Part shown: in pieces, positions 25,967 through 40,051 of the stretch
How positions within the stretch are numbered: position 1 is the stretch's first letter
Layout of the letters: each line of letters opens with the position of its first letter
Source: Betaproteobacteria bacterium
GTDB taxonomy: Bacteria; Pseudomonadota; Gammaproteobacteria; Burkholderiales; SG8-39
Assembly (NCBI GenBank): GCA_019237595.1
Contig: JAFAGU010000054.1
Coordinates: 1-60,189 of the forward strand
DNA length: 60,189 nucleotides
Direction: 5' to 3'
Notes under the pieces: model-generated
Seen by the model: only the letters and a program-made list of their open reading frames with translations
What the model was told of the DNA's origin: nothing
The model's database searches: none
Program-made: the position numbers and the translations under genes

Positions 25967-25979
25967 CTTCCTTCCCTTG

Positions 25980-26606: not shown

Positions 26607-26643
26607 GCCTCGCCGCCATCTGGATGCCCCAGGGGCCGAGGCG

Positions 26644-27480
26644 ATGAGAGTCGCCCTCTGCAACGAGGTCATCGCGCCGATGCCCTTTCCCAAGCAGTGC
26701 GAGTACGCGGCGAAGCTCGGCTACGACGGCCTCGAGATCGCGCCGTACACGCTCTCGGAGGAGCCGCATCGCCTGGGCTCGGCGCAAATCGCCGCGGCGC
26801 GGGCGGCCGCCGACGACGCCGGAATCGCGCTCACCGGGCTTCACTGGCTGCTCCTCAAGCCCGCGGGGCTTTCCATCAGCACCCGCGACGACGCGGCGCG
26901 CAGGAGGACGATCGACGTCATGCTCGCGCTCATCGACCTTTGCGCCGCGCTGGGCGGGCGCTACCTCGTGCATGGTTCACCGCATCAGCGGCGGATCGAG
27001 CCGGGCGAGACGCGAGCCGCGGCGCTCGCGCGCGCCCGCGATACCTTCGCCGCGATCGCCGAGCGGGCCGCCGCGGCGGGGGTCCTCTACTGCATCGAGC
27101 CCCTGTCCGCGGACCAGACGCCGCTCATCAACACCCTCGAGGAAGCGGCGCGTCTGGTCGAGGATATCGCGAGCCCTGCCGTGCGGAGCATGCTCGATTG
27201 CAGCGCCGCCGGGCGGATGGAGAAGGAGCCGCTCGCGCTCCTCGTCGAGCGCTGGCTGCCGCGGGGGCTCATCGCGCACGTGCAGGTGAACGATCGCAAC
27301 CGCCGAGGACCGGGGCAGGGCGAGCAGCGCTTCGCGCCGCTCCTCGCCGCGCTCATCAAGCACGGCTACGACGGCGATCTCGCCGTCGAGCCCTTCGACT
27401 ATGTGCCCGACGGGCCGGGCGCCGCGGCGCGCGCGATCGGCTACATCCGCGGCATCCTTGAAGCGCTCTCGCGCGCATGA
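26644..27480 (+). CDS. xylose-isomerase-like TIM-barrel protein (sugar phosphate isomerase/epimerase family)
   Basis: MRVALCNEV...AKLGYDGLEIAP...GLHWLL...YLVHGSP...CIEPL...HVQVND is the AP-endonuclease-2 / TIM-barrel pattern; 278 aa. Confidence 0.8.
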   Translation: MRVALCNEVIAPMPFPKQCEYAAKLGYDGLEIAPYTLSEEPHRLGSAQIAAARAAADDAGIALTGLHWLLLKPAGLSISTRDDAARRRTIDVMLALIDLCAALGGRYLVHGSPHQRRIEPGETRAAALARARDTFAAIAERAAAAGVLYCIEPLSADQTPLINTLEEAARLVEDIASPAVRSMLDCSAAGRMEKEPLALLVERWLPRGLIAHVQVNDRNRRGPGQGEQRFAPLLAALIKHGYDGDLAVEPFDYVPDGPGAAARAIGYIRGILEALSRA

Positions 27481-28898
27481 GCGGCACGCCTCGCTTCACC
27501 ATCACCGAGCTCGCTCTCTTCGAGCGCGACGTGCGCCTGCGCATGCCGTTTCGCTTCGGCGCGGCGACGCTGAGAGAGGCGCCCCAGGCCTTCGTGCACG
27601 CGCGGATCCGGCTCGAGGATGGGCGCGAAGCCGAAGGCGGCGCCGCCGAGCTCATGGTGCCCAAGTGGTTCGACAAGTCGCCCGAGCGCTCAAACGACGA
27701 GAACGTCGCGGACCTGCGCGCGAGCCTCGCGCTCGCGCGCGAGGCCTACCTTGCGGGCGAGGCGAACACCGCCTTCGGGCATTCGATCGATCACTACGGG
27801 CCCCAGATCGCGCTCGGTGCGCTACGCGGCCTGAACAGCCTCACCGCCTGCTTCGGCCCTGCGCTCGTCGACCGTGCCGTGCTCGATGCGCTCTGCCGGG
27901 CGCTCGGCATCTCGTTCTACCGCGCTATCACGGAAAACGCCGCAGGGATCACGGCGCCGGGCTGGCAGGAGGACCTGCTCGCGTTCGACATGGACGAGTT
28001 CCTCTCGAGCCTCGAGCCACGAACGACCATTGCCGCGCGCCATACGGTCGGTCTCCTGGACCCCATCACCGAGACCGACCTGCGCGAGCCCGTGGGCGAC
28101 GGCCTGCCGGAGACGCTCGAGCAGGTGATCGAGGCCTACGGCCATCGCTGGTTCAAGATCAAGGTGAGCGGAAACGTGGCCGCAGACCTGGAGAGGCTCG
28201 CGGCGATCGCGGCGGTGCTCGATCGCCGCGTCGAGAAATACTGCGTCACGCTCGACGGCAACGAGCAATTCGACGACGCGGAAGCGGCGCTCGCGCTATG
28301 GCGTGCCTTGCGAGCCGATCGGCGCCTGGAGCGCCTGGCGGCGGCGGTCGCGTACATCGAGCAGCCGGTGAAGCGCCAGAATGCGCTCGCAAGCGACGTC
28401 TCGGAGCTCGCCGAGGAGCGCCCGGTCCTCCTCGACGAGTCCGACGATTCGCTCGAGGCGTTTCCGCGCGCCCGCAGGCTCGGCTATACCGGCGTTTCGT
28501 CCAAGACCTGCAAGGGCCTGTACAAGTCGGTTCTCAATGCGGCACGCGCGCGCCTCTGGAATCGCGAGGAGGGCGCCGCGCGCTATTTCCTGTCGGGCGA
28601 AGACCTGACCACCCAGGCGGGGCTCGCGGTGCAGCAGGATCTCGCGCTTGCCGCGCTTCTCGGAGTGGAGCATGTCGAGCGCAATGGCCACCACTACGTG
28701 AATGGCATGAGCGGATCGCCGGCCGCGGAGCAGGGCGTCTTTCTCGAGGCCCATGGCGACCTGTACGAGCGAGGCACGGGGGTCGTGCGCCTTCGCATCA
28801 GGGGCGGCGAACTCGCCATCGCGTCGCTCGATCGCCCGGGATATGCGAGCGGCGCGATGCCGGACTGGAAAGCCATGAGGGAGCTGCGCGCGCCATGA
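27477..28898 (+). CDS. atypical long enolase-superfamily protein (muconate-lactonizing-enzyme-like KxK subgroup)
   Basis: 473 aa. It has KIKV (KxK), DGNEQ, IEQP and LDESD, the three metal-ligand acidic positions in order, followed by SSKTCK. This is longer than typical ~370-aa members. Confidence 0.65.
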   Translation: MSGTPRFTITELALFERDVRLRMPFRFGAATLREAPQAFVHARIRLEDGREAEGGAAELMVPKWFDKSPERSNDENVADLRASLALAREAYLAGEANTAFGHSIDHYGPQIALGALRGLNSLTACFGPALVDRAVLDALCRALGISFYRAITENAAGITAPGWQEDLLAFDMDEFLSSLEPRTTIAARHTVGLLDPITETDLREPVGDGLPETLEQVIEAYGHRWFKIKVSGNVAADLERLAAIAAVLDRRVEKYCVTLDGNEQFDDAEAALALWRALRADRRLERLAAAVAYIEQPVKRQNALASDVSELAEERPVLLDESDDSLEAFPRARRLGYTGVSSKTCKGLYKSVLNAARARLWNREEGAARYFLSGEDLTTQAGLAVQQDLALAALLGVEHVERNGHHYVNGMSGSPAAEQGVFLEAHGDLYERGTGVVRLRIRGGELAIASLDRPGYASGAMPDWKAMRELRAP

Positions 28899-30043
28899 GC
28901 GAAAGGCGGATCGGCATCGCCATGCACGGCGTCACGGGCCGGATGGGAACGAACCAGCATCTCGTGCGCTCGATCCTCGCCATCCGTAGCGAGGGCGGCG
29001 TGCGGCTCCGGGACGGCACGAGGCTCGTGCCGGACCCGCTGCTCCTCGGCCGCGATGCCGGGAAGCTTGCCGCGTTGGCGAAAGCGCATGGCGTCGAGCG
29101 CTGGAGCACCGACCTCGACGCTGCGCTGGAAGGCCCGGACGAAGTGTTCTTCGACGCCGCATCGACCAAGCTGCGCCCCGCGATCCTTCGCCGGGCAATC
29201 GCGGCTGGCAAGCATGTCTACTGCGAGAAGCCGGTCGCCACTTCCACGCGCGAGGCCCTCGTGCTCTACCGGGCAGCGCGCAAGGCGCGCGTGAAGCACG
29301 GCGTCGTGCAGGACAAGCTCTGGCTGCCGGGACTGCTCCGTCTGCGCGAGCTCCGTGACGCGGGTTTCTTCGGTCGCATCCTCTCCGTGAAGGGCGAGTT
29401 CGGGTACTGGGTGTTCGAGGGCGGCGAGCGCCAGGCGCCGCAGCGCCCGTCCTGGAACTATCGCAAGGCCGATCGCGGCGGGATGATCCTCGACATGCTC
29501 TGCCACTGGCGCTACGTGCTGGACAACCTCTTCGGCGCCGTCGAGTCCGTGAGCTGCCTGGGCGCGACGCACATTGCCTATCGCCACGACGAGGCGGGCC
29601 GGCGCTACAAGGCTACGGCCGACGACGCGGCCTACGCGAGCTTCCGCCTCGCGAAGGGCGTGGTCGCGCATTTCAATTGCTCCTGGGCGACGCGGGTTCG
29701 GCGCGACGACTTGCTCACGTTGCAGGTCGATGGCACCGACGGCTCCGCGGTGGCTGGCCTTCGGCGCTGCGTCGTGCAGTCGTGGCGCGACACGCCTCGC
29801 CCGGTCTGGAACCCGGACCTGCCGCAGCCGATCGACTTCTACGCAACCTGGAAGACGCTCGACGACAAGCCGGTCGAGAATGCCTTCAAGGCTCAATGGG
29901 AGCTCTTCCTTCGCCACGTTGCGGGCGAAGGCTCCTTTCGCTGGGACCTGATGGAAGGCGCGAAAGGCGTGCAGCTCGCCGAGCTCGGACTGAAGAGCTG
30001 GCGCCAAAGGAAGTGGGTCGACGTGCCGAGGCTGCGCGCATGA
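28895..30043 (+). CDS. Gfo/Idh/MocA-family NAD(P)-dependent oxidoreductase
   Basis: IGIAMHGVTGRMG Rossmann start and the CEKP motif, with an alpha/beta C-terminal domain. ATGA overlap with the upstream gene. Confidence 0.85.
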   Translation: MSERRIGIAMHGVTGRMGTNQHLVRSILAIRSEGGVRLRDGTRLVPDPLLLGRDAGKLAALAKAHGVERWSTDLDAALEGPDEVFFDAASTKLRPAILRRAIAAGKHVYCEKPVATSTREALVLYRAARKARVKHGVVQDKLWLPGLLRLRELRDAGFFGRILSVKGEFGYWVFEGGERQAPQRPSWNYRKADRGGMILDMLCHWRYVLDNLFGAVESVSCLGATHIAYRHDEAGRRYKATADDAAYASFRLAKGVVAHFNCSWATRVRRDDLLTLQVDGTDGSAVAGLRRCVVQSWRDTPRPVWNPDLPQPIDFYATWKTLDDKPVENAFKAQWELFLRHVAGEGSFRWDLMEGAKGVQLAELGLKSWRQRKWVDVPRLRA

Positions 30044-31212
30044 AGCGCGACCGGATCCTCGGCATTCGGCTGCCGACCGAGGCGGGGTCCGAGGAATTTC
30101 CCGTCCATGCGCCGGGCGCATTCGCGAAGCCTTCCCGACCCTTCACGCGCGTAGCGCTCGCGGCGGCTCACGTGGTCGCGGATCCGCTCTCCTCGAGGGA
30201 GCCGTGGCTCGAGGCGGCAATCGACTGGGACGCGACCATTGCCTACCGCCGCCATCTTTGGTCGTGGGGCTTCGGCGTTGCCGAAGCCATGGATACCGCG
30301 CAGCGGGGGATGGGGCTCGATTGGTCGAGCTCGCTCGAGCTCATTCGAAGGTCCATCGATGCCGCAAAAGGCGTCCCGGGCGCCCATGTCTGGTCCGGCG
30401 CCGGCACCGACGACCTGGCCGGGGACCGGCTTCATTCGCTGGAGAGCATCGCCGCCGCCTACGAGGCGCAGTGCGCGGCGATCGAGAAGCTCGGCGGCCG
30501 GATCATCCACATGGCGAGCCGGGCGCTCGCCGCCGCGGCGAAGGGTCCGGACGACTACGCGCGCGTCTACGACCGGGTGATCTCGCAGCTCCGCGCGCCG
30601 GTGATCATCCATTGGCTCGGCGAGATGTTCGACCCGGCGCTGGCGGGCTATTGGGGACGCTCCGACCATCGCGAGGCGATGAGTGTCTGCCTCGGTGTCC
30701 TGGAGCGCAACAAGGAAAAGATCGAAGGCATCAAGATCTCGCTCCTCGACAAGCACAAGGAAATCGAGATGCGCCGCCGGCTGCCGCATGGCGTGCGCAT
30801 GTACACGGGAGACGACTTCAACTTCGCCGAGCTCATCGTCGGCGATTCCGAGGGACATTCGGAGGCGCTCCTCGGCATCTTCGACGCGATCGCGCCCGCG
30901 GCCTCGCATGCGCTTTCGGCGCTTGCAGAAGGGCGCGCCGAGGCGTGCCTGGAGACGCTCGCGCCCACGGTTCCGCTCTCCCGGCACATCTTTCGCGCTC
31001 CCACGCGGTTCTACAAGACGGGCGTTGTGTTCATGGCGTGGCTGAACGGCCACCAGGACCACTTCGTCATGGTGGGCGGCCAACAGTCGGCGCGCAGCGT
31101 CCTGCACCTCGCGGAGCTATTCCGCCTCGCGGACGCGGCGGGCCTTCTCGCCGATCCGGAGCTCGCCTGCCATCGCATGAAGCGGCTCCTCGCGCTGCAC
31201 GGCATCGAATGA
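30040..31212 (+). CDS. conserved hypothetical protein, probably DUF993-type (function unknown)
   Basis: 390 aa with no catalytic motif I can name. The DUF993 assignment rests on my recollection of length and of the recurrent neighbourhood (Gfo/Idh/MocA + TIM-barrel isomerase). It needs an HMM check. Confidence 0.5.
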   Translation: MKRDRILGIRLPTEAGSEEFPVHAPGAFAKPSRPFTRVALAAAHVVADPLSSREPWLEAAIDWDATIAYRRHLWSWGFGVAEAMDTAQRGMGLDWSSSLELIRRSIDAAKGVPGAHVWSGAGTDDLAGDRLHSLESIAAAYEAQCAAIEKLGGRIIHMASRALAAAAKGPDDYARVYDRVISQLRAPVIIHWLGEMFDPALAGYWGRSDHREAMSVCLGVLERNKEKIEGIKISLLDKHKEIEMRRRLPHGVRMYTGDDFNFAELIVGDSEGHSEALLGIFDAIAPAASHALSALAEGRAEACLETLAPTVPLSRHIFRAPTRFYKTGVVFMAWLNGHQDHFVMVGGQQSARSVLHLAELFRLADAAGLLADPELACHRMKRLLALHGIE

Positions 31213-32804
31213 GCCGGCGAAGCAAGATGGTCTCGTTCGAGGCAGCGGCCAGGCTGGTCCGGGACGGCTCGGTGCTCGCCGTGAGCTCCTCGTCGGGACT
31301 CAATTGCCCGGACCGGATGCTCGCGGCGATCGGCGAGCGCTTCGCCTCCGAAGGCCATCCGCGGGAGATCACGTTCTTCATGCCCATTGCGGCCGGCGAC
31401 ATGTACGGCATCAAGGGGATCGACCACATCGCCAGGAAGGGGCTTCTCCGCCGCGTCGTCGGCGGCTCCTATCCGAGCGGCCCTTCGTCGCTCGAGCCGC
31501 CGGCGATCTGGAAGATGATCAGCGCCAACGAGGTCGAGGCCTACAACTTTCCCTCGGGCGTGCTCTTCGACATGCTGCGCGACGTGGCCGCGCGCCGGGC
31601 CGGCGTGCTGACAAGGATCGGCCTCGACACCTTCGTCGATCCGCGCCGCCACGGCGGCAAGATGAACCGGGCGGCTCGAGAAGACCTGGTGCGAGTGGTG
31701 GAGTTCGGCGGCGAGGAGTGGCTGCACTTTCCCAACGTGCTGCCGAACATCGCGATCGTCCGCGGCACGAGCGCCGACCCGGACGGCAACGTCTCGAGCG
31801 AGCACGAAGGCGCGCCGCTCGGCGCGCTCGACGTGGCGCTCGCAACCCACAACGCGGGCGGCGTGGTCATCGCACAGGTGAAGCGTCTCGTGGATCGCGG
31901 CGCGATCCCAGCGCAGCACGTCGCGGTGCCTTCCACGCTGGTGGACTACGTCGTCGTCGACCCGGACCAGATGCAGGCGACGCAGACGCGCTACGACCCC
32001 GCGCTCTCCGGCGAGGCGAAGAAGCCGCGCGCGTCCTTCGAGCGCGTACCCTTCGGCCCCGACAAGGTCATCGCTCGCCGGGCGGCGCTCGAGCTCGCCG
32101 AGGGCGACGCCGTGAACCTCGGGTTCGGCATCTCGCCGCTCGTGCCGCTGATCCTGCTCGAGGAAGGAGACGACGAGGCGGTCACCTGGGCGATCGAGCA
32201 AGGACCGATTGGCGGCATTCCCGCGGGCGGTTTCGTCTTCGGCTGTGCGTTCAACGCGCAGGCCATCATTCCCTCGCCGCAGCAGTTCACGTACTTCCAG
32301 GGCGCGGGCTTCGATCTCTGCATGCTTTCTTTCCTGGAGATCGACCGCCATGGCTCGGTGAACGTCTCGCAGCTCTCCGCCAAGCCGCACGTCACGGCGG
32401 GCTGCGGCGGCTTCGTCGACATCACCTCCCACGCCCGCCGCATCGTGTTCTCGGGCTATTTCCGGGCCGGTGGGCTGCAGCTCGAGATCGCCGGCGAGCG
32501 GATGAAGATCGCCCGCGAAGGAAGCGTCGCCAAGCTCGTGCCCGAGGTCGAGCATGTCACGTTCAGCGGCCGGCGCGGCCGCGCGCAAGCGCAGGAAGTG
32601 ACCTACATCACCGAGCGCTGCGTCCTGCGCCTCGCGAAGGAAGGTCTCGAGGTCACCGAGATCGCGCCGGGCATCGACCTGGAGCGCGACGTCCTTGCTC
32701 GGGCAGGATTCCCGCTCTCGGTATCGCCTGCGCTGAAGACGATGGACGCGCGCCTCTTTCGCCCGGAGCCGATGAAGCTCGCATTGAAGGAGCGGCGAAC
32801 GTGA
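31209..32804 (+). CDS. family-I CoA-transferase, fused alpha/beta (YdiF / acyl-CoA:acetate-3-ketoacid CoA-transferase-like)
   Basis: 531 aa. The N-terminal half has VSFEAAARLVRDGSVLAVSSS...YPSGP. The C-terminal half has GFGI...IEQGPIGGIP, the position of the catalytic Glu. Confidence 0.8.
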   Translation: MSRRSKMVSFEAAARLVRDGSVLAVSSSSGLNCPDRMLAAIGERFASEGHPREITFFMPIAAGDMYGIKGIDHIARKGLLRRVVGGSYPSGPSSLEPPAIWKMISANEVEAYNFPSGVLFDMLRDVAARRAGVLTRIGLDTFVDPRRHGGKMNRAAREDLVRVVEFGGEEWLHFPNVLPNIAIVRGTSADPDGNVSSEHEGAPLGALDVALATHNAGGVVIAQVKRLVDRGAIPAQHVAVPSTLVDYVVVDPDQMQATQTRYDPALSGEAKKPRASFERVPFGPDKVIARRAALELAEGDAVNLGFGISPLVPLILLEEGDDEAVTWAIEQGPIGGIPAGGFVFGCAFNAQAIIPSPQQFTYFQGAGFDLCMLSFLEIDRHGSVNVSQLSAKPHVTAGCGGFVDITSHARRIVFSGYFRAGGLQLEIAGERMKIAREGSVAKLVPEVEHVTFSGRRGRAQAQEVTYITERCVLRLAKEGLEVTEIAPGIDLERDVLARAGFPLSVSPALKTMDARLFRPEPMKLALKERRT

Positions 32805-33250
32805 GCGCGAAGTGGTATGAGGAGGCCGAGGTGGGCGAGCGCTTCCAGACCGGCGGAATCGTCGTGACGGAGAGCCATGTCATGGGCTTTGCCGGCCTTA
32901 CGGGGGATTTCTTCGACCTGCACGTGGACGACGACTTCGCGCACAAGCTTGGCTTTCCCGGGCGGGTGGCGCACGGCATCCTCGGCCTTGCGATCGTCGA
33001 CGGGCTGAAGAACCGCGCCGAAACGCGCTTCCGCGCCGTGGCCTCGCTCGGATGGAACTGGAAGTTCAGGAAACCGATCCTCATCGGCGACCGCATCCGC
33101 GCCGAGATCGAAATTTGCGGCAAGCGCGAGACGAAGCGCGCCGACCGCGGCATCCTCGTGCTCGAGTTCAAGGTCAGGAACCAGCGCGAGGAGGTGGTGC
33201 AGGAAGGAACGAACGAATTGATGGTCCTGCGGAGGCCGCGTGGCGCGTAA
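32801..33250 (+). CDS. MaoC-like (R)-specific enoyl-CoA hydratase/dehydratase, hot-dog fold
   Basis: GTGA overlap with the upstream gene. It has the GDFFDLHVDDDFA...GRVAHG hydratase-2 motif. Confidence 0.85.
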   Translation: MSAKWYEEAEVGERFQTGGIVVTESHVMGFAGLTGDFFDLHVDDDFAHKLGFPGRVAHGILGLAIVDGLKNRAETRFRAVASLGWNWKFRKPILIGDRIRAEIEICGKRETKRADRGILVLEFKVRNQREEVVQEGTNELMVLRRPRGA

Positions 33251-33980
33251 GCCGGCCGCGCTCGTCACGGGCGGAAATCGCGGCATCGGCCGGGGCATCG
33301 TCCTTGCGCTCGCCGCCCGCGGCTTCGACGTCGTGGTGAACGACCTCGATGAGGATGCGCACGGCGACTTTCCCTTCGTGAGGGGCGATATCGCGAAGCT
33401 CGACGGGCACGCGAAGCTCGTCGAGGACGGCTGGCGCGCCTACGGCTCGCTCGATTGCCTCGTCAACAATGCCGGCGTGCAGGTCAAGGTGCGAGGCGAC
33501 CTGCTCGATGTCTCGGCCGAGAGCTTCGACCGGCTCCTCGGCGTGAACCTGCGCGGCACGTTCTTCCTGACGCAGGCGCTCGCGCGCCGCATGCTCGCCG
33601 AGCAGCGGCAGCCGGAGTCGCCGATGCGCTCGATCATCTCGATTTCTTCGATCAACGCTTTCGTCGTCGGCGCCAACCGCGGCGAATACTGCCTGTCGAA
33701 GAGCGCACTCACCATGATGGTGAAGCTCTTCGCCGTCCGGCTTGCCGATGCCGGCATCCGCTGCTACGAAGTCCGGCCGGGAATCATCCGCACCGACATG
33801 ACGCGCCCAGCGGCCGACCGGTACGACAAACTCATTGCCGAGGGACTTACACCGATCCGCCGCTGGGGCGAGCCGCAGGACGTCGGCCGCGCGGTGGCGA
33901 TGCTCGCGAGCGGCGACCTGCCGTATTCCACCGGCGAGGCGCTGCACGTGGACGGCGGCATGCATATGCAGACGCTATGA
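33240..33980 (+). CDS. SDR (3-oxoacyl / 3-hydroxyacyl-thioester reductase-like)
   Basis: GTG start, 11-nt overlap with the upstream gene. It has TGGNRGIGRG, NNAG and YCLSK motifs. Confidence 0.85.
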   Translation: MARKPAALVTGGNRGIGRGIVLALAARGFDVVVNDLDEDAHGDFPFVRGDIAKLDGHAKLVEDGWRAYGSLDCLVNNAGVQVKVRGDLLDVSAESFDRLLGVNLRGTFFLTQALARRMLAEQRQPESPMRSIISISSINAFVVGANRGEYCLSKSALTMMVKLFAVRLADAGIRCYEVRPGIIRTDMTRPAADRYDKLIAEGLTPIRRWGEPQDVGRAVAMLASGDLPYSTGEALHVDGGMHMQTL

Positions 33981-34744
33981 ACATCAGCGGCGCAACGCGC
34001 GTCTATTGCCTGCTCGGGGATCCGCTGCACAAGGCGAGGACGCCCGAGCATTTCAACGGTCTCTTCGCCCAGCGCGGCATCGACGCGGTGATGGTTCCGC
34101 TCGAGGTGCCCGACGGCGCGCTCGCCGAGGCTTTTTCCGTCCTGAGGAAAGTGAAGAACCTGGACGGCCTGATCATCACCATGCCGCACAAGGCCGGCAT
34201 GGCGGGGCTTGTCGACGAGCTCGAGGCGGGCGGCCGCAACGCCGGGGCCATCAACGCCGCGCGGCGCGGCGGCGACGGTCGCTGGCGAGGGGACATGTTC
34301 GACGGCCGGGGCTATACCGGTGCGCTCGCCGCGCGCGGCGTCGATCCGCGCGGCAAGCAAATACATCTGATCGGGGCGGGCGCCGTGGCGAGAGCCATCG
34401 GCTTCGCGCTGCGGGAAGCGGGCGCGGGTGCCTTCACGCTCGTGGACGTCAACCGATCGCGCGCGGCGGCGCTCGCCGGTCTGCTCGAAGCGCGCGTCGC
34501 CGACGAACCCGAAAAGGCGGACGTCGTCGTCAATTGCACGCCGCTCGGCATGAAGGAGGGGGATGCGCTTCCGTGCGATCCGGCGCGGATTTCGCCGGCC
34601 GCCGTCGTGTCCGACGTGACGACGAAGCCCGAAATCACGCCGTTCCTGTCCGCTGCCCGGGCCCGCGGCCACACGGTCACGACCGGGCGCGACATGTTCG
34701 AGGCGCAAGGCGAGCTCATCGCAGGCTTCTTCGGCTGGCGATGA
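33977..34744 (+). CDS. shikimate-dehydrogenase-family (AroE-like) dehydrogenase with altered substrate clamp
   Basis: GDPLHKARTPEHFN replaces the canonical GNPIxHSKSPxxHN. The catalytic Lys (ITMPHK) and Asp (MFDG) are retained. It has a GAGAVARA dinucleotide motif; 255 aa. Confidence 0.75.
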   Translation: MNISGATRVYCLLGDPLHKARTPEHFNGLFAQRGIDAVMVPLEVPDGALAEAFSVLRKVKNLDGLIITMPHKAGMAGLVDELEAGGRNAGAINAARRGGDGRWRGDMFDGRGYTGALAARGVDPRGKQIHLIGAGAVARAIGFALREAGAGAFTLVDVNRSRAAALAGLLEARVADEPEKADVVVNCTPLGMKEGDALPCDPARISPAAVVSDVTTKPEITPFLSAARARGHTVTTGRDMFEAQGELIAGFFGWR

Positions 34745-35166
34745 AATTCTTCGTCGAGATCGGCGAGAGCGCCGAGTTCACGAAGTCCATCGGCGCCGAG
34801 GACCTCGCGCGCTTTGCCGAGCTGAGCGGCGACTTCGACCCGATCCACATGGACGACGCCTATGCCGCGGCTTCGCGGTACGGGCGGCGCATCGCGCACG
34901 GGATCCTCGCCATGGCGCCGCTCTCCGCCGTCTCGGCGATGATCAGCCGGCGCGCCAAGGAGCGCGGCTCACCCGGTGTCTCGGTCTCGATGGGCTACGA
35001 CCGCATCCGCTTCCTCAAGCCGGTGTACATGGGCGACACGCTTACCGCGCGCTACACCATCCAGTCGCTCGAAGGCGACCGCAGCCGCTCGAAGGTCGAG
35101 GTGCTGAACCAGGCCGGCGAGCTCGTCGTCGCCGGCGAGCACATCATGAAGTGGCTCCCCGAGTGA
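34741..35166 (+). CDS. MaoC-like dehydratase, hot-dog fold (second copy)
   Basis: ATGA overlap with the upstream gene. It has the GDFDPIHMDDAYA...RRIAHG motif. Confidence 0.85.
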   Translation: MKFFVEIGESAEFTKSIGAEDLARFAELSGDFDPIHMDDAYAAASRYGRRIAHGILAMAPLSAVSAMISRRAKERGSPGVSVSMGYDRIRFLKPVYMGDTLTARYTIQSLEGDRSRSKVEVLNQAGELVVAGEHIMKWLPE

Positions 35167-36305
35167 GCGACCCGGCGAGGCTCCTGCGCGAGACGGTCCG
35201 GCGTTTCGCGGACGAACGGATCCGCCCGCTCGCCCGCGAGCTCGACGAATCGGAGCGCTTCCCTGCGGAGCTCTACGTCGAGATGGCGAAGCTCGGGCTC
35301 TTCGGCATCACGGTTCCCGATACCGTCGGCGGGGCCGGCATGGACGTCGCCTCCTATGCGGTGGTCATGGAGGAGCTTTCGCGTGGCTACGCATCCGTGG
35401 CCGACCAGTGCGGCCTCGTCGAGCTCGTAGGGACGCTCCTCGCCGAGCATGGCTCGGAGGACCAGAAAGAACGCTATCTCAGGCCGCTTCTCGCGGCGAA
35501 GCGACGCTGTGCCTATGCCCTGACCGAGGCGGAAGCCGGCTCGGACCTGGCCGGACTGAAGGCGTTTGCCGAAAAGCGCGGCGACGGATGGATCCTCGGC
35601 GGCGAGAAGATGTGGATCCACAACGCGCCGGTCTGCGATTTCGCCGCCGTCCTCGCCCGCACGGACAAGGGCGCCGGGCACCGCGGGATGAGCATCTTCA
35701 TCGTCGACCGGGACCTGCGCGGCGTGGCGGCGGGCAAGAAGGAGCACAAGATGGGGCAGCGAGCGTCGCAGGTGGGCGCGCTTGCCTTCACCGACGTGGC
35801 GCTTCCCGCTGCCGCCCTCCTCGGCCCGGAGGGGCGCGGCTTCTACATGATGATGAGCGTCCTGGACAAGGGTCGCGTGGGCATCGCGGCGCTCGCGCTC
35901 GGAATCCTTCAGGCGGCGCTCGACGCCTCGGTCGAGCACGCGCGGCTGCGGCGGCAGTTCGGCCGCGCGATCGCGGAATTCCAGGCGGTGCAGTGGATGA
36001 TCGCCGACATGGCGAAGGACGCGCATGCCGCGCGGCTCCTTGTGCGCGACGCCGCGGCGAAGCTCGACGCCGGCGAGCGCGCCACGATCGAGGCTTCGAT
36101 CGCGAAGTGCTTTGCCTCGGACGCGGCGGTCGCGCACACGGCAAACGCCGTGCAGGTCCATGGCGGCTCGGGCTACATCCGCGGCTTCGAGGTCGAGCGG
36201 CTTTACCGCGACGCAAAAATCACCCAGATCTACGAAGGGACAAACCAGATTCAGCGTATGATCATCGCGAGGCAGGTCCTGGGTAACCAGGCTGTTAATT
36301 CCTGA
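35151..36305 (+). CDS. acyl-CoA dehydrogenase
   Basis: YALTEAEAGSD, GGEKMWI, and the C-terminal catalytic-Glu motif IYEGTNQIQ. GTG at 35163 would give a GTGA overlap and is an equally good start. Confidence 0.9.
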   Translation: MAPRVSDPARLLRETVRRFADERIRPLARELDESERFPAELYVEMAKLGLFGITVPDTVGGAGMDVASYAVVMEELSRGYASVADQCGLVELVGTLLAEHGSEDQKERYLRPLLAAKRRCAYALTEAEAGSDLAGLKAFAEKRGDGWILGGEKMWIHNAPVCDFAAVLARTDKGAGHRGMSIFIVDRDLRGVAAGKKEHKMGQRASQVGALAFTDVALPAAALLGPEGRGFYMMMSVLDKGRVGIAALALGILQAALDASVEHARLRRQFGRAIAEFQAVQWMIADMAKDAHAARLLVRDAAAKLDAGERATIEASIAKCFASDAAVAHTANAVQVHGGSGYIRGFEVERLYRDAKITQIYEGTNQIQRMIIARQVLGNQAVNS

Positions 36306-36316
36306 GGAGGAATTCA

Positions 36317-37294
36317 ATGAAGAAAGCACTGCTGGCGGGCGCCTTCGCGGCCTTCTGCTCGCTTCCCGCCCACGCGCAGAACATCACCTGGCATGGCGCT
36401 TCGCAATTCAACGACGACCACGCCTTCACGAAGACGCTGGTGAAGTTCGAGGATCTGGTGAAGAAGTACTCCGGCAGGCCGGTGAGCTTCGTGCTCCACA
36501 AGAACTCGGAGCTTGGCCTGGAGAAGCAATATTTCGAGTACATGGCGCAGGGCAAGGCCGTGGACTACGGCATCGTGTCCCCGGCGCACATGTCTACCTT
36601 CTCGAAGGCGGCGCCCTTCATCGATGCGCCTTTCGTCTTCAGGGACCACGAGCACTGGAACAAGGTGCTGGACGCGGACCTTTTCAAGCCCATAGCCGAT
36701 GAGATACACCAGAAGGCCGATGTGCTCCTCATTGGCTACGCGGGAGGAGGGACGCGCAATCTTTTCGTCAACAAGCCGGTGCGCAACCTCCAGGACATGA
36801 AAGGCCTCAAGGTCCGGGTTCAGGGGGCGCCCATCTGGAGCCGTACCTTCGCTGCGGTGGGCATGGCGCCGACGGTCATCGCGTACAACGAGATCTACAA
36901 CGCGATACAGAACAACGTCATCTCGGCGGGTGAAAACGAGGCGGCAGGGGTCGAGCAGATGAAGTTCTACGAGGTCGCGCCGCAGCTTTCCATGACACAG
37001 CACGCGATCACGATCCGGCCGATCTGCTTCTCTGGCAAGACGTTCAAGGGCCTCGACAAGGCGATGCAGGCCGCGGTGCTGCGCGCCGGCAGGGAAGCCG
37101 GCGCCTACGGACGACAGGTCGAATCAAGCGAAGACGAGCAGAAGCTCGCGGCGCTCGAGAAAGCGGGGCGGCTGACGCGCGTGGCGTTCACGGACCGGGC
37201 GCAGATGAAGAAACTCGTCGACCCGGTAATGGAGGCTTACGCCAAGGAAATCGGCGCCTCGGAGATCCTCGCCAGGATCAACTCGATCAAATAA
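36317..37294 (+). CDS. dctP: TRAP transporter substrate-binding protein (DctP family)
   Basis: GGAGG RBS. Signal peptide MKKALLAGAFAAFCSLPAHAQ. The GGGTRNLF block contains the carboxylate-binding Arg conserved in the family. Confidence 0.88.
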   Translation: MKKALLAGAFAAFCSLPAHAQNITWHGASQFNDDHAFTKTLVKFEDLVKKYSGRPVSFVLHKNSELGLEKQYFEYMAQGKAVDYGIVSPAHMSTFSKAAPFIDAPFVFRDHEHWNKVLDADLFKPIADEIHQKADVLLIGYAGGGTRNLFVNKPVRNLQDMKGLKVRVQGAPIWSRTFAAVGMAPTVIAYNEIYNAIQNNVISAGENEAAGVEQMKFYEVAPQLSMTQHAITIRPICFSGKTFKGLDKAMQAAVLRAGREAGAYGRQVESSEDEQKLAALEKAGRLTRVAFTDRAQMKKLVDPVMEAYAKEIGASEILARINSIK

Positions 37295-37305
37295 CGCAGC
37301 ACTCG

Positions 37306-37341
37306 GACGCCGCGCCGGCAGCGGCGCGGCGTCTTTTCGTT
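37306..37341 (+). terminator. intrinsic terminator / attenuator between dctP and dctQ
   Basis: GACGCCGCGCC-GGCAGC-GGCGCGGCGTC is a perfect 11-bp stem, followed by TTTTCGTT. Confidence 0.7.
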
Positions 37342-37352
37342 CCGGGGGACGC

Positions 37353-37889
37353 ATGTTGGGAATGCCGGGCAGGAAGCGCACCGCGTGGCGCACGTTTACC
37401 GCGTGGTATGCATGGGGTCTTTCGCAGGTGCTTGCCCTCGCGCTCGTAGTGCTGGTCATCCCCGTGTCGCTGCAGATCTTTTCGCGCTACACCCCGTTCG
37501 TCCCGACCTACATATGGACCGAGGAGATGGCGCGCTTCCTGTTCGTCTGGGTGATCATGCTCGGCAGCATCATCGGCGTCTACGAGAACGCCCATTTCGA
37601 CTGCGACCTGTGGCCTGACTACGGCCCGCGAGTCGACGCCATCGGCCGCCTCCTCGGTCGCGTGGGTGTACTGATCACCGCGCTCATCTTCATCTGGGCC
37701 GGCATCGAATTCACCAAATTCGCGTGGAATCGGACCTCGGAGCTCGGCGACCTGCCGCTCTGGTACATCCATGTTGCCTGGCCCATCGCAGGCGTCTCAT
37801 GGATCGTGTTTCTCGGCGAACAGATGCTCGATGACGTGCGCATCATCCGCGGCCTGGAGCCGATCGATCCGGTGCGGAGACCGATGTGA
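37353..37889 (+). CDS. dctQ: TRAP transporter small permease (DctQ family)
   Basis: About 4 TM segments, with the W.EE..RFLFVW motif typical of DctQ. Confidence 0.85.
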   Translation: MLGMPGRKRTAWRTFTAWYAWGLSQVLALALVVLVIPVSLQIFSRYTPFVPTYIWTEEMARFLFVWVIMLGSIIGVYENAHFDCDLWPDYGPRVDAIGRLLGRVGVLITALIFIWAGIEFTKFAWNRTSELGDLPLWYIHVAWPIAGVSWIVFLGEQMLDDVRIIRGLEPIDPVRRPM

Positions 37890-39205
37890 ACGGCTCGGTC
37901 CTGTCGCCGGTGATGGCCTGCGTGGTCCTGCTCGGTACCTTCGGCGTGCTCATGGCGATGCGGCTGCCGATTGCTTTCGCGCTCGGGCTCTCCTGCGTGC
38001 CGATCCTCGTGATCGAGCCGCGGCTGGATACGGTCGTGCTGATGAGCGAGACATTCAATGCCTACAATTCGTTCATCCTCCTCGCGGTCCCGTTTTTCCT
38101 TCTCACAGCGAACCTCATGAACGCGGGAGGGACGACGGACCGGCTGCTCAGGCTGTCGCGCGCCATGGTGGGCCACTTCCCGGGCGGGCTTGCGCAGATC
38201 AATGTGCTGCTTTCGGTGTTCTTCGCTGGCATTTCGGGCTCGGCGACCGCCGACGCCGCGAGCCAGTCGAAGATTTTCCTGGACGCCCAGAAGAAGGAGG
38301 GCTACGACGACAGTTTCTCCGTCTCCATTACCGCCGTTTCGGCGGTGCTCTCCAACATCTTTCCACCGTCGATCCTGATGGTGGTATGGGGCGGGCTCCT
38401 CACGGTGTCGATAGGCGGCCTGTTTCTCGCCGGGATTATTCCGGGGCTCCTCGTCGGCCTCGCGCAGATGGCCACCGTTCACGTCTACGCGAAGCTGCGC
38501 AATTACCCGACCTACAAGCGCGCCACATTCAAGGAATTCCTCAAGTCGCTCTGGGTTTCAATTCCCGCGCTTACGACGCCCGGGATCATCATCGGCGGAA
38601 AGATCTTCGGCTGGTTCACCGCCACCGAGTCGGCTTGCATTGCCGTCCTCTACGCGCTCGTCATCTCGTTCTTCGTGTACCGCGATCTCGACCTGCGCGG
38701 CTTCTACGGTGCGCTAGTGGATACGGGAAAGCTCGCCGGCGTCGCGCTTTTCTGCGTGGGCACAGCAAGCGTCTTCGGCTGGATCCTCGCGTACTACAAG
38801 ATTCCGGAGGCGGTGCTGGCGGGCGTATCGACCTGGAACATGGGACTGACTGCTACGGGCTTCTTCATCGTCTTCGTCTTCCTCGTCGCGGGGACGTTCC
38901 TCGATTCCATTCCTGCGATCATCATTTGCGCGCCCATCCTGGAGCCGCTCGCCCGGCATGGCGGGATGGATCCGATCCACTTCGCCATGATCAGCATCGT
39001 GTCGCTCGCGTTCGGGCTCGTCACGCCTCCGTACGGAATTACGCTCTCCATCGCGTGCTCGGTCGCCGGGATCAGGATGCGCGAGGCGCTTTGGGATACG
39101 AACATCATGCTGCTTCCCATGCTGGGAGTGCTGATGCTGCTCGTCATCTGGCCCGAGACGGTTCTCTTCCTCCCTCGGCTGATCTCGCCGGAGTTCCTGA
39201 AATAG
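37886..39205 (+). CDS. dctM: TRAP transporter large permease (DctM family)
   Basis: GTGA overlap with dctQ. 439 aa, polytopic, with DctM-like blocks (FFAGISGSATADAA, PPSILMVVWG). Confidence 0.9.
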   Translation: MNGSVLSPVMACVVLLGTFGVLMAMRLPIAFALGLSCVPILVIEPRLDTVVLMSETFNAYNSFILLAVPFFLLTANLMNAGGTTDRLLRLSRAMVGHFPGGLAQINVLLSVFFAGISGSATADAASQSKIFLDAQKKEGYDDSFSVSITAVSAVLSNIFPPSILMVVWGGLLTVSIGGLFLAGIIPGLLVGLAQMATVHVYAKLRNYPTYKRATFKEFLKSLWVSIPALTTPGIIIGGKIFGWFTATESACIAVLYALVISFFVYRDLDLRGFYGALVDTGKLAGVALFCVGTASVFGWILAYYKIPEAVLAGVSTWNMGLTATGFFIVFVFLVAGTFLDSIPAIIICAPILEPLARHGGMDPIHFAMISIVSLAFGLVTPPYGITLSIACSVAGIRMREALWDTNIMLLPMLGVLMLLVIWPETVLFLPRLISPEFLK

Positions 39206-39211
39206 CGCGGC

Positions 39212-40042
39212 ATGGGCGCGCCCGACCCTTCGAGGCTCTCGCTCAATACCGCCACGGTCCGCAAGCAGTGGAAGCTCGCGCAGATACTCGATGGCTGCGC
39301 GCGGCACGGCATCCGCGGCGTGGCGCCGTGGCGCGATCAGGTGCAGGAATTCGGGCTCGACCAGACGGCGCGCCTCGCGAAGACCCACGGCCTCACCGTC
39401 ACGGGCCTTTGCCGCGGCGGCTTCTTCACCGGCAAGAACTGGCTAGAAGACAATCGGCGGGCGATCGCCGAAGCCCACGTGCTGGGCGCGCAGTGCCTCG
39501 TGCTGGTCGTCGGCGGACTGCTCTTCGAGTCGAAGAACCTCGTCCGCGCCCGCGAGGTCGTCCGCGAATCGCTCCAGGAAATCCTTCCCGAAGCGAGGCA
39601 GGCCGGCGTCCCGCTTGCCATCGAGCCGCTGCATCCCATGCAGGCGGCGGAGCGGGCCTGCATAAACACGCTCGAGCAGGCGCTCGACCTCTGCGATGCG
39701 CTGGACCCGGGAGGTTCGCGAGGCGCCCCGGCTCTAGGCGTGGCGGTCGACGCCTACCACGTATGGTGGGACCCGAAGCTCGAAGCGCAGATCCAGCGCG
39801 CGGGGAGCCGCATCCTCGCGTACCACATCTGCGACTGGCTCGTGCCCACGCGCGACCTCCTCAACGACCGCGGCATGATGGGCGACGGCGTCATCGACCT
39901 GCCGCGCATTCGTTGCTGGGTAGAGGCAGCCGGCTACGCCGGCTTCCACGAGGTGGAGATCTTCTCGGAGCTCGACTGGTGGCGGAAGAATCCCGATGAC
40001 GTGCTTGCGACCTGCAAGCAGCGCCACCGGGAGTGCAGCTGA
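39212..40042 (+). CDS. xylose-isomerase-like TIM-barrel protein (second copy; sugar phosphate isomerase/epimerase or dehydratase type)
   Basis: LSLNTATV...HGIRGVAPWRD...LVLVVGG...AIEPLHP...YHVWWD...YHICDW; 276 aa. It lies 6 nt downstream of dctM. Confidence 0.78.
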   Translation: MGAPDPSRLSLNTATVRKQWKLAQILDGCARHGIRGVAPWRDQVQEFGLDQTARLAKTHGLTVTGLCRGGFFTGKNWLEDNRRAIAEAHVLGAQCLVLVVGGLLFESKNLVRAREVVRESLQEILPEARQAGVPLAIEPLHPMQAAERACINTLEQALDLCDALDPGGSRGAPALGVAVDAYHVWWDPKLEAQIQRAGSRILAYHICDWLVPTRDLLNDRGMMGDGVIDLPRIRCWVEAAGYAGFHEVEIFSELDWWRKNPDDVLATCKQRHRECS

Positions 40043-40051
40043 GCCGCCGGG

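What the first reader, a model, noticed from the sequence alone, without database searches (positions are those of the whole stretch)
31209..36305. CoA-thioester module containing an AroE-family dehydrogenase with a remodelled substrate clamp
Seen in sequence:
- A shikimate-dehydrogenase-fold gene (33977-34744) sits between an SDR and a MaoC dehydratase, with ATGA overlaps on both sides, inside a CoA-transferase/ACAD block.
- It keeps the catalytic Lys (ITMPHK) and Asp (MFDG).
- The canonical HSKSP carboxylate-binding loop reads HKARTP, and the NTD triad reads MFD.

Established: in AroE the two Ser residues of HSKSP bind the shikimate carboxylate.

Inference: loss of the first Ser fits a substrate whose carboxylate is no longer free, for example esterified to CoA, or a different alicyclic polyol. 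Two non-identical MaoC hot-dog dehydratases suggest two separate dehydration steps.
Basis: partly seen in the sequence, partly recalled or inferred. Interest (0 to 1): 0.6.

Follow-up and report, generated by a model that had tools for sequence, protein, structure and literature searches.

The report
Non-AroE shikimate-dehydrogenase paralogue in CoA operon
The gene is a real, intact relative of shikimate dehydrogenase from a conserved, uncharacterised subfamily that is repeatedly found beside CoA-transferase, hydratase and acyl-CoA dehydrogenase genes, so it probably oxidises an unknown hydroxy-acid in an undescribed breakdown pathway rather than making aromatic amino acids.

Summary
Gene 33977-34744 encodes a 255-aa protein with a full shikimate-dehydrogenase (SDH) fold. 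It keeps the catalytic Lys72/Asp109. HSKSP reads HKARTP and NTD reads MFD. ATGA overlaps join it to an SDR and a MaoC gene.

It is not AroE. A canonical aroE lies on another contig, and every NCBIfam AroE/YdiB/SdhL-type model scores below its cut-off.

It belongs to a coherent clade (x-x-[AVL]-R-[ST]-P, TMPHK, G[DE]MFDG, Asp at the NAD site, truncated C-terminus). More than 534 species genomes encode a relative matching the family's peptide patterns. The nearest solved structure is Pseudomonas putida 4k28 (36% identity).

Loss of the first Ser and of Asn-Thr is common across a much wider SDH clade, so it is not a specific sign of a CoA-ester substrate. Synteny does link the clade to CoA chemistry: 24 of 34 long loci carry orthologues of the YdiF-type CoA-transferase, MaoC or ACAD within 10 kb, in several gene orders. 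Three genomes have the gene but no ACAD orthologue.

The best reading is an NAD-dependent secondary-alcohol dehydrogenase in an orphan, TetR-controlled, TRAP-fed pathway for a polyhydroxy-carboxylate. Whether it acts on the free acid or a CoA ester is unresolved. Earlier notes of this scan report similar SDH-plus-CoA clusters on other DNA.

The parts
25953..25966 (.). Perfect palindrome TAACCA-tc-TGGTTA just upstream of tetR; candidate TetR operator
   Evidence: Read in sequence. Function is inferred.
25977..26606 (+). TetR-family regulator (TetR_N + TetR_C_29)
   Evidence: Pfam. An orthologue (74% identity) heads the related locus L001.
26644..27480 (+). Xylose-isomerase-like TIM barrel 1 (AP_endonuc_2)
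   Evidence: Pfam 121 bits. Best solved relatives are ketose 3-epimerases at 50-57 bits.
27477..28898 (+). 473-aa atypical enolase-superfamily protein
   Evidence: MR_MLE_C 45 bits, covering residues 212-336 only. No close solved structure.
28895..30043 (+). Gfo/Idh/MocA oxidoreductase
   Evidence: Pfam. Weak matches to levoglucosan and inositol dehydrogenase models.
30040..31212 (+). DUF993 protein
   Evidence: PF06187 595 bits. PDB 4dnh 'uncharacterized protein' 549 bits.
31209..32804 (+). Single-chain family I CoA-transferase of the YdiF type
   Evidence: CoA_trans. 36% identity over the full 531 aa to E. coli YdiF, E 1e-124.
32801..33250 (+). MaoC hot-dog (de)hydratase 1
   Evidence: PF01575 74 bits. 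The GD..LH catalytic pair is present.
33240..33980 (+). FabG-like SDR
   Evidence: NF009386 348 bits, above the cut-off of 250.
33977..34744 (+). SDH-fold dehydrogenase of the TMPHK clade (the finding)
   Evidence: PF08501 57.6 bits. AF2 model pLDDT 94. Z 32.1, rmsd 2.1, 252 residues aligned to 4k28. Motifs.
34741..35166 (+). MaoC hot-dog (de)hydratase 2
   Evidence: PF01575 74 bits. The GD..IH pair is present. 32% identity to MaoC1.
35163..36305 (+). Acyl-CoA dehydrogenase (Bcd/AcrC/CarC-like)
   Evidence: Pfam and NCBIfam. PDB 5ol2_C 326 bits and 6fah_C 323 bits. Orthologues at 65-83% identity lie in related loci.
36317..37294 (+). TRAP solute-binding protein DctP
   Evidence: Pfam. PDB 4nx1/4ovp (Sulfitobacter, EFI-510292) 342 bits.
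37305..37334 (+). GC-rich hairpin followed by a T-rich tail, between dctP and dctQ
37353..37889 (+). TRAP small membrane subunit DctQ
   Evidence: Pfam
37886..39205 (+). TRAP large membrane subunit DctM
   Evidence: Pfam
39212..40042 (+). Xylose-isomerase-like TIM barrel 2; the commonest same-strand downstream neighbour of the SDH-like gene in other loci (10 loci; a divergent MaoC1 follows in 12)
   Evidence: Pfam. PDB 3qc0 and 3ju2 (SMc04130) 335 bits, both unassigned. Neighbour counts.

Best explanation
Gene 33977-34744 encodes an active, NAD+-preferring secondary-alcohol dehydrogenase with the shikimate-dehydrogenase fold. It belongs to a distinct, conserved clade: x-x-[AVL]-R-[ST]-P, TMPHK, G[DE]MFDG, and no C-terminal helix. 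It is not the cell's AroE.

It works in a TetR-controlled accessory operon (25977-40042). That operon imports a carboxylate through a TRAP transporter whose binding protein resembles uronate binders. It processes the compound with an orphan sugar-acid set (Gfo/Idh/MocA, DUF993, two TIM barrels, an atypical enolase). It then passes carbon through CoA thioesters (YdiF-type CoA-transferase, two MaoC (de)hydratases, a FabG-like SDR, an ACAD).

The most likely role is Lys72/Asp109-catalysed oxidation of a ring or chain hydroxyl of the free polyhydroxy-carboxylate, or of a keto/deoxy derivative of it. The resulting ketone would activate a neighbouring position for beta-elimination or cleavage by the adjacent barrel or hydratase enzymes. 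The altered clamp (Ala20, Arg21, Thr22, Phe108, Thr216, Lys217) marks a non-shikimate anionic substrate.

Shown here: the fold, the catalytic residues, clade membership, synteny, and the separate aroE. Inferred: cofactor, direction of the reaction, substrate class, and position in the pathway.
For: - Fold and residues: the AF2 model has pLDDT 94 and aligns with solved SDHs at Z 28-32 over the whole length. K72, D109, N93 and Q244 are invariant in the family.
- Cofactor: Asp157 lies at the end of beta-2 where AroE has NRT, as in 4k28. The 4k28 entry title is cut at 'in comp...'; I recall that the bound cofactor is NAD+.
- Not AroE: a canonical aroE lies on contig C118 (HSKSP, NVTLPFK, GDTTDG, NRT; NF001310 341 bits, above the cut-off of 221). 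P0001 is below the cut-off of every AroE/YdiB/SdhL-type model.
- Clade: the TMPHK loci form one clade (FastTree support 96) with AroE and YdiB as outgroup. There are 372 homologues in the protein collection, and more than 534 species genomes encode a relative matching the family's peptide patterns.
- Operon: an unbroken chain of overlapping starts and stops. The same gene order is found at 69% identity in L003.
- Carboxylate substrate: the related loci use TRAP and TctC-type importers. DctP scores 342 bits to the Sulfitobacter EFI-510292 binding protein, and the next hits include structures I recall as uronate-bound.
- Free-acid preference: Arg21 is invariant and Lys217 nearly so. Close homologues (about 50% identity) lie in CoA-free loci together with TIM barrel, enolase and Gfo genes (L001, L013). 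Three genomes have the gene but no ACAD orthologue. In Acetobacteraceae the gene is co-transcribed with a Gfo/Idh/MocA gene and lies divergent from the CoA genes. A TIM-barrel gene follows it on the same strand in 10 loci. The 3-hydroxyacyl-CoA oxidation step already has a candidate in the SDR.
Against: - No biochemical data exist for any member of the clade.
- In this window the gene lies in the middle of the CoA genes and is translationally coupled to an SDR and a MaoC gene. In Variovorax it directly follows CoA-transferase and crotonase genes. It is also the gene that travels with the CoA module in Acetobacteraceae, where DUF993 and the TIM barrels are missing. This position fits a CoA-ester substrate just as well.
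- CoA-free loci may be served by CoA genes elsewhere in the genome. Two of the five genomes tested had the ACAD orthologue on another contig.
- The ligand of the nearest solved binding protein is recalled from memory. The entry title was cut off in the tool output.
- The side-chain orientation of Arg21 and Lys217 could not be inspected because no model coordinates were available.
Confidence: 0.5

Rival explanations
1. The enzyme oxidises or reduces a hydroxyl or ketone on an acyl-CoA thioester of an alicyclic or sugar-derived acid. The Ser and Tyr carboxylate clamp was lost because the carboxylate is esterified.
For: - The gene is embedded in the CoA block with ATGA coupling on both sides.
- 24 of 34 long TMPHK loci carry CoA-module orthologues within 10 kb, against 2 of 12 for sister SDH types (Fisher p = 0.002).
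- At least five different gene orders keep the association. One example is CoAT-ECH-SDH-DUF993-TIM in Variovorax.
- Ser14, Tyr215 and Thr101 equivalents are replaced by Ala, Thr and Phe.
- E. coli also places an SDH paralogue (ydiB) beside ydiF and ydiO.
Against: - The clamp changes are found across a wider clade and also occur in members with no CoA neighbours.
- Invariant Arg21 and near-invariant Lys217 suit a free anion.
- CoA-free loci exist, and so do genomes without the ACAD orthologue.
- I know of no SDH-fold enzyme with an acyl-CoA substrate.
- No fusion to a CoA-related domain was found (this is weak evidence).
Confidence: 0.27
2. It is a catabolic quinate/shikimate-type (hydroaromatic) dehydrogenase, functionally like YdiB or QsuD. 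It would feed a CoA-dependent hydroaromatic route, with the TIM barrel acting like a dehydroshikimate dehydratase.
For: - The SDH fold with an intact Lys/Asp/Asn/Gln set.
- An NAD-type site.
- A frequent pairing of the SDH gene with an AP_endonuc_2 gene, a family that I recall includes dehydroshikimate dehydratases.
- The E. coli ydiB-aroD-ydiF-ydiO arrangement, with the CoA-transferase 36% identical to YdiF.
- As I recall, the 4k28-type enzyme has weak NAD-dependent shikimate activity.
Against: - There is no dehydroquinase gene in the operon.
- The TIM barrels are nearest to unassigned 'sugar isomerases' and ketose epimerases. The QuiC model gives only 19.7 bits for TIM1.
- The YdiB and QsuD models score 63 and 53 bits, against cut-offs of 349 and 515.
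- The shikimate-contacting Ser14, Thr101 and Tyr215 equivalents are lost.
- The binding protein is closest to a Sulfitobacter TRAP protein whose ligand I recall as a uronate.
Confidence: 0.12
3. It is a redundant biosynthetic shikimate dehydrogenase (an AroE isozyme) that merely happens to lie in this operon.
For: Pfam Shikimate_dh_N is above its cut-off, and public annotation of homologues reads 'shikimate dehydrogenase'.
Against: - A canonical aroE is present elsewhere in the genome.
- All equivalog models score below their cut-offs.
- The cofactor site is of the NAD type.
- The distribution is patchy: 0 of 3 same-genus genomes and 11 of 80 same-family genomes have a match.
- The synteny is consistently catabolic.
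Confidence: 0.02

Closest known systems
Pseudomonas putida KT2440 'shikimate dehydrogenase family protein', PDB 4k28. Probably the RifI-class enzyme RifI2 of Peek et al. 2013 (pmid 23142411). That identification is from memory; the paper was not readable here.
   Same: Best sequence and fold match: 147 bits against 89 or less for all other solved SDHs; 36% identity; Z 32.1, rmsd 2.1, 252 residues aligned. The first Ser of HSxSP is lost (AQVKSP). Thr is lost before the catalytic Asp (NVD). Asp sits at the NAD site. The conserved Asn is kept (N186 here, N193 in 4k28). The C-terminus is short.
   Different: Only 36% identical. 4k28 has K-S-P, TVPYK and NVD where this clade has R-[ST]-P, TMPHK and MFD. 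4k28 has no known CoA gene context. Its physiological substrate is also unknown.
AroE, NADP-dependent shikimate dehydrogenase (E. coli 1nyt; the genome's own copy P0272)
   Same: Same two-domain fold (Z 28-31). The catalytic Lys/Asp and the Asn and Gln of the substrate pocket are conserved.
   Different: 25-29% identity. Ser14 becomes Ala, Lys15 becomes Arg, Asn59 becomes Ile, Asn-Thr becomes Met-Phe, and Tyr215 becomes Thr. The NRT NADP motif is replaced by an Asp-type site. The last helix is missing. HMM scores are below the cut-offs.
E. coli YdiB and its neighbourhood ydiB-aroD-ydiF-ydiO
   Same: An SDH paralogue lies beside a single-chain family I CoA-transferase and an ACAD. The window's CoA-transferase is 36% identical to YdiF over 531 aa.
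   Different: The SDH is only 28% identical to YdiB, which keeps HSLSP and NTD. The ACAD is only 26% identical to YdiO. There is no aroD here. The function of the E. coli block is itself untested.
5-ketofructose reductase of Gluconobacter (PDB 7cok/7col)
   Same: An SDH-fold enzyme that acts on a sugar and not on shikimate. 73 bits; Z 29.6, rmsd 2.5, 249 residues aligned.
   Different: 26% identity. It was crystallised with NADPH (7col title). Its substrate is a neutral ketose and it has no CoA context.
Cyclohexanecarboxyl-CoA formation from shikimate in Streptomyces collinus (ans/chc genes). Recalled from memory, not checked here.
   Same: A precedent for dehydrating and reducing a shikimate-derived ring as a CoA ester using ACAD-like, SDR and dehydratase enzymes.
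   Different: It is biosynthetic, uses a CoA ligase, and has no SDH-fold enzyme acting on the thioester. No sequence comparison was made.

Membership tests
AroE (shikimate 5-dehydrogenase, EC 1.1.1.25) | Two-domain SDH fold with a Shikimate_dh_N domain | tested here: met
   PF08501 57.6 bits, above the cut-off of 27. The model aligns to AroE structures at Z 28-31.
AroE (shikimate 5-dehydrogenase, EC 1.1.1.25) | Catalytic Lys/Asp dyad (E. coli K65/D102) | tested here: met
   K72 and D109 align with them and are invariant.
AroE (shikimate 5-dehydrogenase, EC 1.1.1.25) | Ser-x-Ser plus Tyr carboxylate clamp, and Thr before the catalytic Asp | tested here: not met
   A20-R21-T22, T216 and F108 occupy these positions.
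AroE (shikimate 5-dehydrogenase, EC 1.1.1.25) | Score above the curated cut-off of an AroE equivalog model | tested here: not met
   TIGR00507 gives 107.6 against 200.2. The best model, NF001319, gives 141 against 252. The genome's own AroE passes.
AroE (shikimate 5-dehydrogenase, EC 1.1.1.25) | NADP-type NRT...R site after beta-2 | tested here: not met
   The family has h-x-D-h-D with near-invariant D157. Cofactor use was not assayed.
YdiB / QsuD quinate-shikimate dehydrogenases | Score above the curated cut-off (NF009390, NF010631) | tested here: not met
   63.5 against 349, and 53.2 against 515. 28% identity to E. coli YdiB.
SdhL (HI0607) and Ael1 | Close similarity to the solved class representatives 1npy and 3pwz | tested here: not met
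   37.8 and 47 bits, 22% and 23% identity. PRK12550 gives 81.7 against 306.
RifI class / 4k28-like SDHs | Nearest relative; NAD-type Asp; conserved Asn in the cofactor domain; C-terminal truncation | tested here: met
   147 bits and 36% identity to 4k28. D157 and N186 are present. The sequence ends about 18 residues before AroE and YdiB.
RifI class / 4k28-like SDHs | Phylogenetic grouping with RifI of Amycolatopsis and RifI1/2 of P. putida | not testable with these tools
   No RifI, Ael1 or SdhL sequences could be brought into the tree. Only AroE and YdiB served as outgroup.
TMPHK clade (defined here) | x-x-[AVL]-R-[ST]-P, TMPHK and G[DE]M[FY]DG motifs, and monophyly | tested here: met
   The motifs are present. 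The clade has 62 tips, of which 59 carry TMPHK, with support 96.

The most novel reading that the evidence does not exclude
The TMPHK clade would be the first SDH-fold enzyme known to act directly on an acyl-CoA thioester: a polyhydroxylated ring or sugar-derived acid activated by the YdiF-type transferase. The operon would then encode an undescribed CoA-dependent route for uronate-like or hydroaromatic acids. The same logic might explain the untested E. coli ydiB-aroD-ydiF-ydiO block.
Probability: 0.22. Interest if true: 0.8.

Novelty: new variant of a known kind. Interest (0 to 1): 0.55.

Why it matters
Routine annotation calls hundreds of these genes 'shikimate dehydrogenase'. Here the gene is clearly not AroE, and its clade has no assigned substrate.

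The clade's repeated partnership with a YdiF-type CoA-transferase, MaoC hydratases and a highly conserved ACAD points to a catabolic pathway that joins sugar-acid-type chemistry to CoA-thioester chemistry. In many Burkholderiales the widespread orphan set Gfo/Idh/MocA + DUF993 + TIM barrel is part of the same cluster. No such route is described for these enzyme families.

Finding the substrate would do three things. It would assign function to several orphan families at once. It would extend the known reaction range of the SDH fold. It would give a testable lead for the long-unexplained E. coli ydi gene block.

Tried and rejected
- Literature: searches for 4K28, DUF993, RifI2, the SDH class names, 4NX1, taluronate or mannuronate with TRAP, 7VPF, and SDH+MaoC+CoA-transferase clusters found nothing usable. 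The RifI2 paper and the SDH family review could not be opened, nor could the TRAP screening paper under the PMC id I recalled.
- TRAP ligand: I modelled DctP to retrieve the title of its nearest PDB entry. The model was poor (pLDDT 58). The title of 4ovp was cut off before the ligand name, so the uronate ligand rests on my memory.
- Class phylogeny: a tree with RifI, Ael1 and SdhL could not be built because their sequences were not obtainable. The tree has only AroE and YdiB as outgroup and was made with FastTree.
- Fusions: a search for longer, fused forms of the SDH-like protein found none at E<=1e-30. The tool itself rates this as weak evidence.
- Obligate MaoC1/MaoC2 heterodimer: considered and thought less likely. 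Both keep the catalytic Asp/His, and MaoC1 occurs without MaoC2 in many loci. No complex prediction was run, because a pass would not separate hetero- from homodimers.
- Promoter scan: no sigma-70-like site by the strict consensus in 25500-40400.
- Pocket geometry: the AF2 model could not be docked or inspected, because no coordinates were available.

Full report
**Observation.** The window has about 68% G+C, so I called genes from third-position GC and stop/start mapping.

From 25977 to 40042 there is one + strand chain of 15 genes, in this order:
- TetR
- a xylose-isomerase-like TIM barrel
- a 473-aa atypical enolase-superfamily protein
- Gfo/Idh/MocA
- DUF993
- a CoA-transferase
- MaoC
- an SDR
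- the SDH-like gene (33977-34744)
- a second MaoC
- an ACAD
- DctP, DctQ and DctM
- a second TIM barrel

Nine consecutive junctions overlap (ATGA or GTGA, and one of 11 nt), including ATGA on both sides of the SDH-like gene.

The translation (P0001, 255 aa) carries LLGDPLHKARTPE, ITMPHK, AINA, GDMFDG and MFEAQG. Alignment with E. coli AroE and YdiB and with the genome's own AroE fixes the correspondences:
- S14 becomes A20, K15 becomes R21, S16 becomes T22.
- N59 becomes I66.
- T61 and K65 are kept as T68 and K72.
- N86 is kept as N93.
- N-T-D102 becomes M107-F108-D109.
- Y215 becomes T216.
- Q244 is kept.

**It is a sound SDH-fold enzyme but not AroE.** An AlphaFold model built on 38 homologues has mean pLDDT 94. 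It aligns over its whole length with solved shikimate dehydrogenases at Z 28-32. Only Pfam's N-terminal domain model passes its threshold. Every NCBIfam AroE, YdiB, QsuD or SdhL-type model is far below its cut-off.

The assembly (3.27 Mb, 88% complete) holds exactly two SDH homologues. The other, on contig C118, has HSKSP, NVTLPFK, AVNT, GDTTDG and NRT, and passes NF001310 and TIGR00507. So the biosynthetic function is already covered elsewhere.

The family has Asp157 at the end of beta-2 where AroE has its NADP motif, and it lacks the last 18 or so residues of AroE and YdiB. From this I infer NAD+ use and a catabolic direction.

**Which SDH is it?** Against all PDB sequences, the best hit by a wide margin is 4k28, a 'shikimate dehydrogenase family protein from Pseudomonas putida KT2440' (147 bits, 36% identity, Z 32.1). 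Other scores are:
- 89 bits for the best AroE
- 63 bits for YdiB
- 47 bits for Ael1 (3pwz)
- 38 bits for SdhL (1npy)

4k28 itself reads AQVKSP, TVPYK and GDNVDG.

From memory, this is the RifI-class enzyme RifI2 (Peek et al. 2013, pmid 23142411; the citation was seen in PMC7144000). It was described as NAD-preferring, C-terminally truncated, poorly active on shikimate and without a known physiological substrate. Its conserved Asn193 matches my residue count in the 4k28 alignment. I could not open that paper.

**The motif changes in context.** The 120 closest homologues (45-71% identity) conserve DP[LI]xK[AV]R[ST]PE, TMPHK, GDM[FY]DG, DV..KP and M.E.Q. Arg21, Lys72, Asn93, Asp109, Asn186 and Gln244 are invariant.

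A search of 1.84 billion cluster representatives gave 315 clusters at E<=1e-30 and 6,505 at E<=1e-10. Among the best 150 of these, the first motif is typically [QH]-V-[RK]-[ST]-P, the second is T-[VIM]-P-H-K, and the residues before the catalytic Asp vary freely (MF, NF, IF, LF, ML, NV, MT).

So loss of the first Ser and of Asn-Thr is a trait of a large, mostly unstudied SDH clade. It is not special to genes that lie beside CoA genes. The substitutions are common, but in non-AroE relatives and not in bona fide AroE. The AroE and YdiB sequences I compared directly (E. coli AroE and YdiB, the genome's own AroE, 2egg, 3tnl) all keep S-x-S and NTD or TTD.

**Synteny.** A pattern scan of one genome per species found more than 534 genomes encoding a relative, and the best 80 loci were kept. 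Together with loci fetched for metagenomic homologues, I searched them with all 15 operon proteins, classified each SDH by motif, and built a tree.

The TMPHK/G[DE]MFDG genes form one clade (support 96, AroE and YdiB as outgroup). It has three sub-clades: two in Burkholderiales and one in Acetobacteraceae.

Of 34 TMPHK loci with at least 8 kb on both sides:
- 24 carry at least one orthologue of the CoA-transferase, a MaoC or the ACAD within 10 kb.
- 17 carry two or more.
- 11 carry DUF993, TIM-barrel or enolase genes.

Of 12 loci with sister motif types, 2 carry a CoA-module orthologue (Fisher p = 0.002). Related genomes are not independent, so this p-value overstates the case.

The ACAD orthologues are 65-83% identical even where the SDH is only 37-45% identical. 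Gene order differs between lineages:
- SDR-SDH-MaoC2-ACAD here and in L003
- CoAT-MaoC1-(crotonase)-DctPQM-(SDR)-SDH-TIM in L017, L088 and L089
- TctC-CoAT-crotonase-SDH-DUF993-TIM-SDR in Variovorax
- Gfo-SDH divergent from MaoC1-SDR-ACAD-LacI, with CoAT-MaoC2 on an Opp-type ABC operon nearby, in Plastoroseomonas and its relatives

Retention of the association through such rearrangement is good evidence of functional coupling to CoA chemistry.

**Limits of that coupling.** L001, L002 and L013 (about 50% identity, in the window's own sub-clade) have TetR, TIM, enolase, a VOC protein, Gfo, SDH, TIM and TctCBA, but no CoA gene within 10 kb.

I searched five whole genomes whose SDH loci lacked CoA genes. 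Two had the conserved ACAD (69% identity) on another contig. Three had only generic ACAD paralogues (41-44% identity): a 3.6-Mb MAG, a complete 4.2-Mb MAG chromosome, and Belnapia arida. In Belnapia the gene is followed by two amidohydrolase-2 genes and a Rieske ferredoxin gene.

Within the window's own family, 11 of 80 other genomes and none of three same-genus genomes have a match. The operon is therefore accessory.

**The rest of the operon.**
- The CoA-transferase is of the single-chain YdiF type: 36% identity over all 531 residues to E. coli YdiF. In E. coli, ydiB, aroD, ydiF and ydiO are adjacent. The ACAD and the SDH are only 26-28% identical to YdiO and YdiB.
- The ACAD resembles Bcd, CarC and AcrC enzymes.
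- The SDR passes a FabG-like equivalog model. It is the natural candidate for 3-hydroxyacyl-CoA oxidation, which leaves the SDH-like enzyme a different hydroxyl.
- Both MaoC proteins keep the catalytic Asp and His and are 32% identical. MaoC1 is often present without MaoC2.
- No thiolase gene is present in the operon.
- DUF993 and TIM barrel 2 match solved but unassigned proteins (4dnh; 3qc0 and 3ju2 = SMc04130).
- DctP scores 342 bits to the Sulfitobacter EFI-510292 binding protein (4nx1/4ovp). I recall its ligands as D-taluronate and D-mannuronate. A review confirms only that these acids were among the TRAP ligands found in that screen (PMC12076931).
- Immediately downstream lies a second TRAP system with a mutarotase, a GntR regulator, an NAD-dependent epimerase/dehydratase-family protein and a Gfo/Idh/MocA gene.

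Together these results favour an acidic sugar of uronate type as the substrate.

**Interpretation.** What is shown:
- an intact, conserved, non-AroE SDH-fold dehydrogenase
- a separate aroE elsewhere in the genome
- a defined clade
- a strong but not obligate link to a YdiF-type CoA-transferase, MaoC hydratases and an ACAD

What is inferred: NAD+ use, oxidation of a secondary alcohol of the imported polyhydroxy-carboxylate or a derivative, and a role in setting up elimination or cleavage.

I give the free-acid reading about 0.5. The reasons are the Arg21/Lys217 gain, the CoA-free loci, the genomes without the ACAD, co-transcription with Gfo, and pairing with a TIM barrel. I give the CoA-ester reading about 0.27, because of the gene's embedded position and the fact that it travels with the CoA module where the sugar-acid genes are absent. 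A hydroaromatic substrate gets about 0.12, and a redundant AroE about 0.02.

Earlier notes of this scan describe similar SDH-plus-CoA clusters and the recurring orphan Gfo/DUF993/TIM set in other genomes. I used them as leads only.

Noticed in passing
window 28895-31212 and 39212-40042: The set Gfo/Idh/MocA + DUF993 + xylose-isomerase-like TIM barrel recurs in many related loci. Its nearest solved structures (4dnh, 3qc0, 3ju2 = SMc04130) have no assigned function. Earlier notes of this scan report the same orphan set in at least 76 genomes.
   Followed up: partly
window 27477-28898: A 473-aa enolase-superfamily outlier. Only residues 212-336 match MR_MLE_C (45 bits), and no solved structure is close. 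Orthologues at 52-74% identity lie in related loci.
   Followed up: partly
window 40052-48524: A second carboxylate locus on the opposite strand: aldose 1-epimerase, a 592-aa DctM-containing TRAP membrane protein (probably a DctQ-DctM fusion) and DctP. It looks like uronate uptake and oxidation. In L087 the same kind of genes directly follows the SDH/ACAD genes.
   Followed up: partly
window 37305-37334: A 13-bp GC-rich hairpin followed by a T-rich tail lies between dctP and dctQ. It is a likely partial terminator that raises the amount of binding protein relative to the membrane subunits.
   Followed up: partly
window 25953-25966: The perfect palindrome TAACCA-tc-TGGTTA lies 11 nt upstream of the tetR start. 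It is a candidate operator.
   Followed up: partly
window 18275-25903: A central-carbon gene row (transketolase, GAPDH, PGK, pyruvate kinase, and probably fructose-bisphosphate aldolase) lies directly upstream of the operon. In L088 and L089 the related operon also lies beside an aldolase-purE-purC row, so the island seems to sit at a conserved chromosomal site.
   Followed up: no
window 16167-17525 (- strand): One 452-aa protein combines an AdoMet decarboxylase domain with a spermidine synthase domain.
   Followed up: no
L040 10807-13405 (Belnapia arida): Here a TMPHK-type SDH gene is followed by two amidohydrolase-2 genes and a Rieske ferredoxin gene instead of CoA genes. This context is more aromatic or lignin-like, so the clade may not share a single substrate.
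   Followed up: no
L083 (Pseudogemmobacter lacusdianii): An SDH of a sister motif type (RQVRST, TIPHK, GDIFDG) is nevertheless surrounded by orthologues of CoAT, DUF993, MaoC2, the TRAP genes, SDR, ACAD and TetR. The link to the CoA module therefore reaches beyond the TMPHK clade.
   Followed up: no
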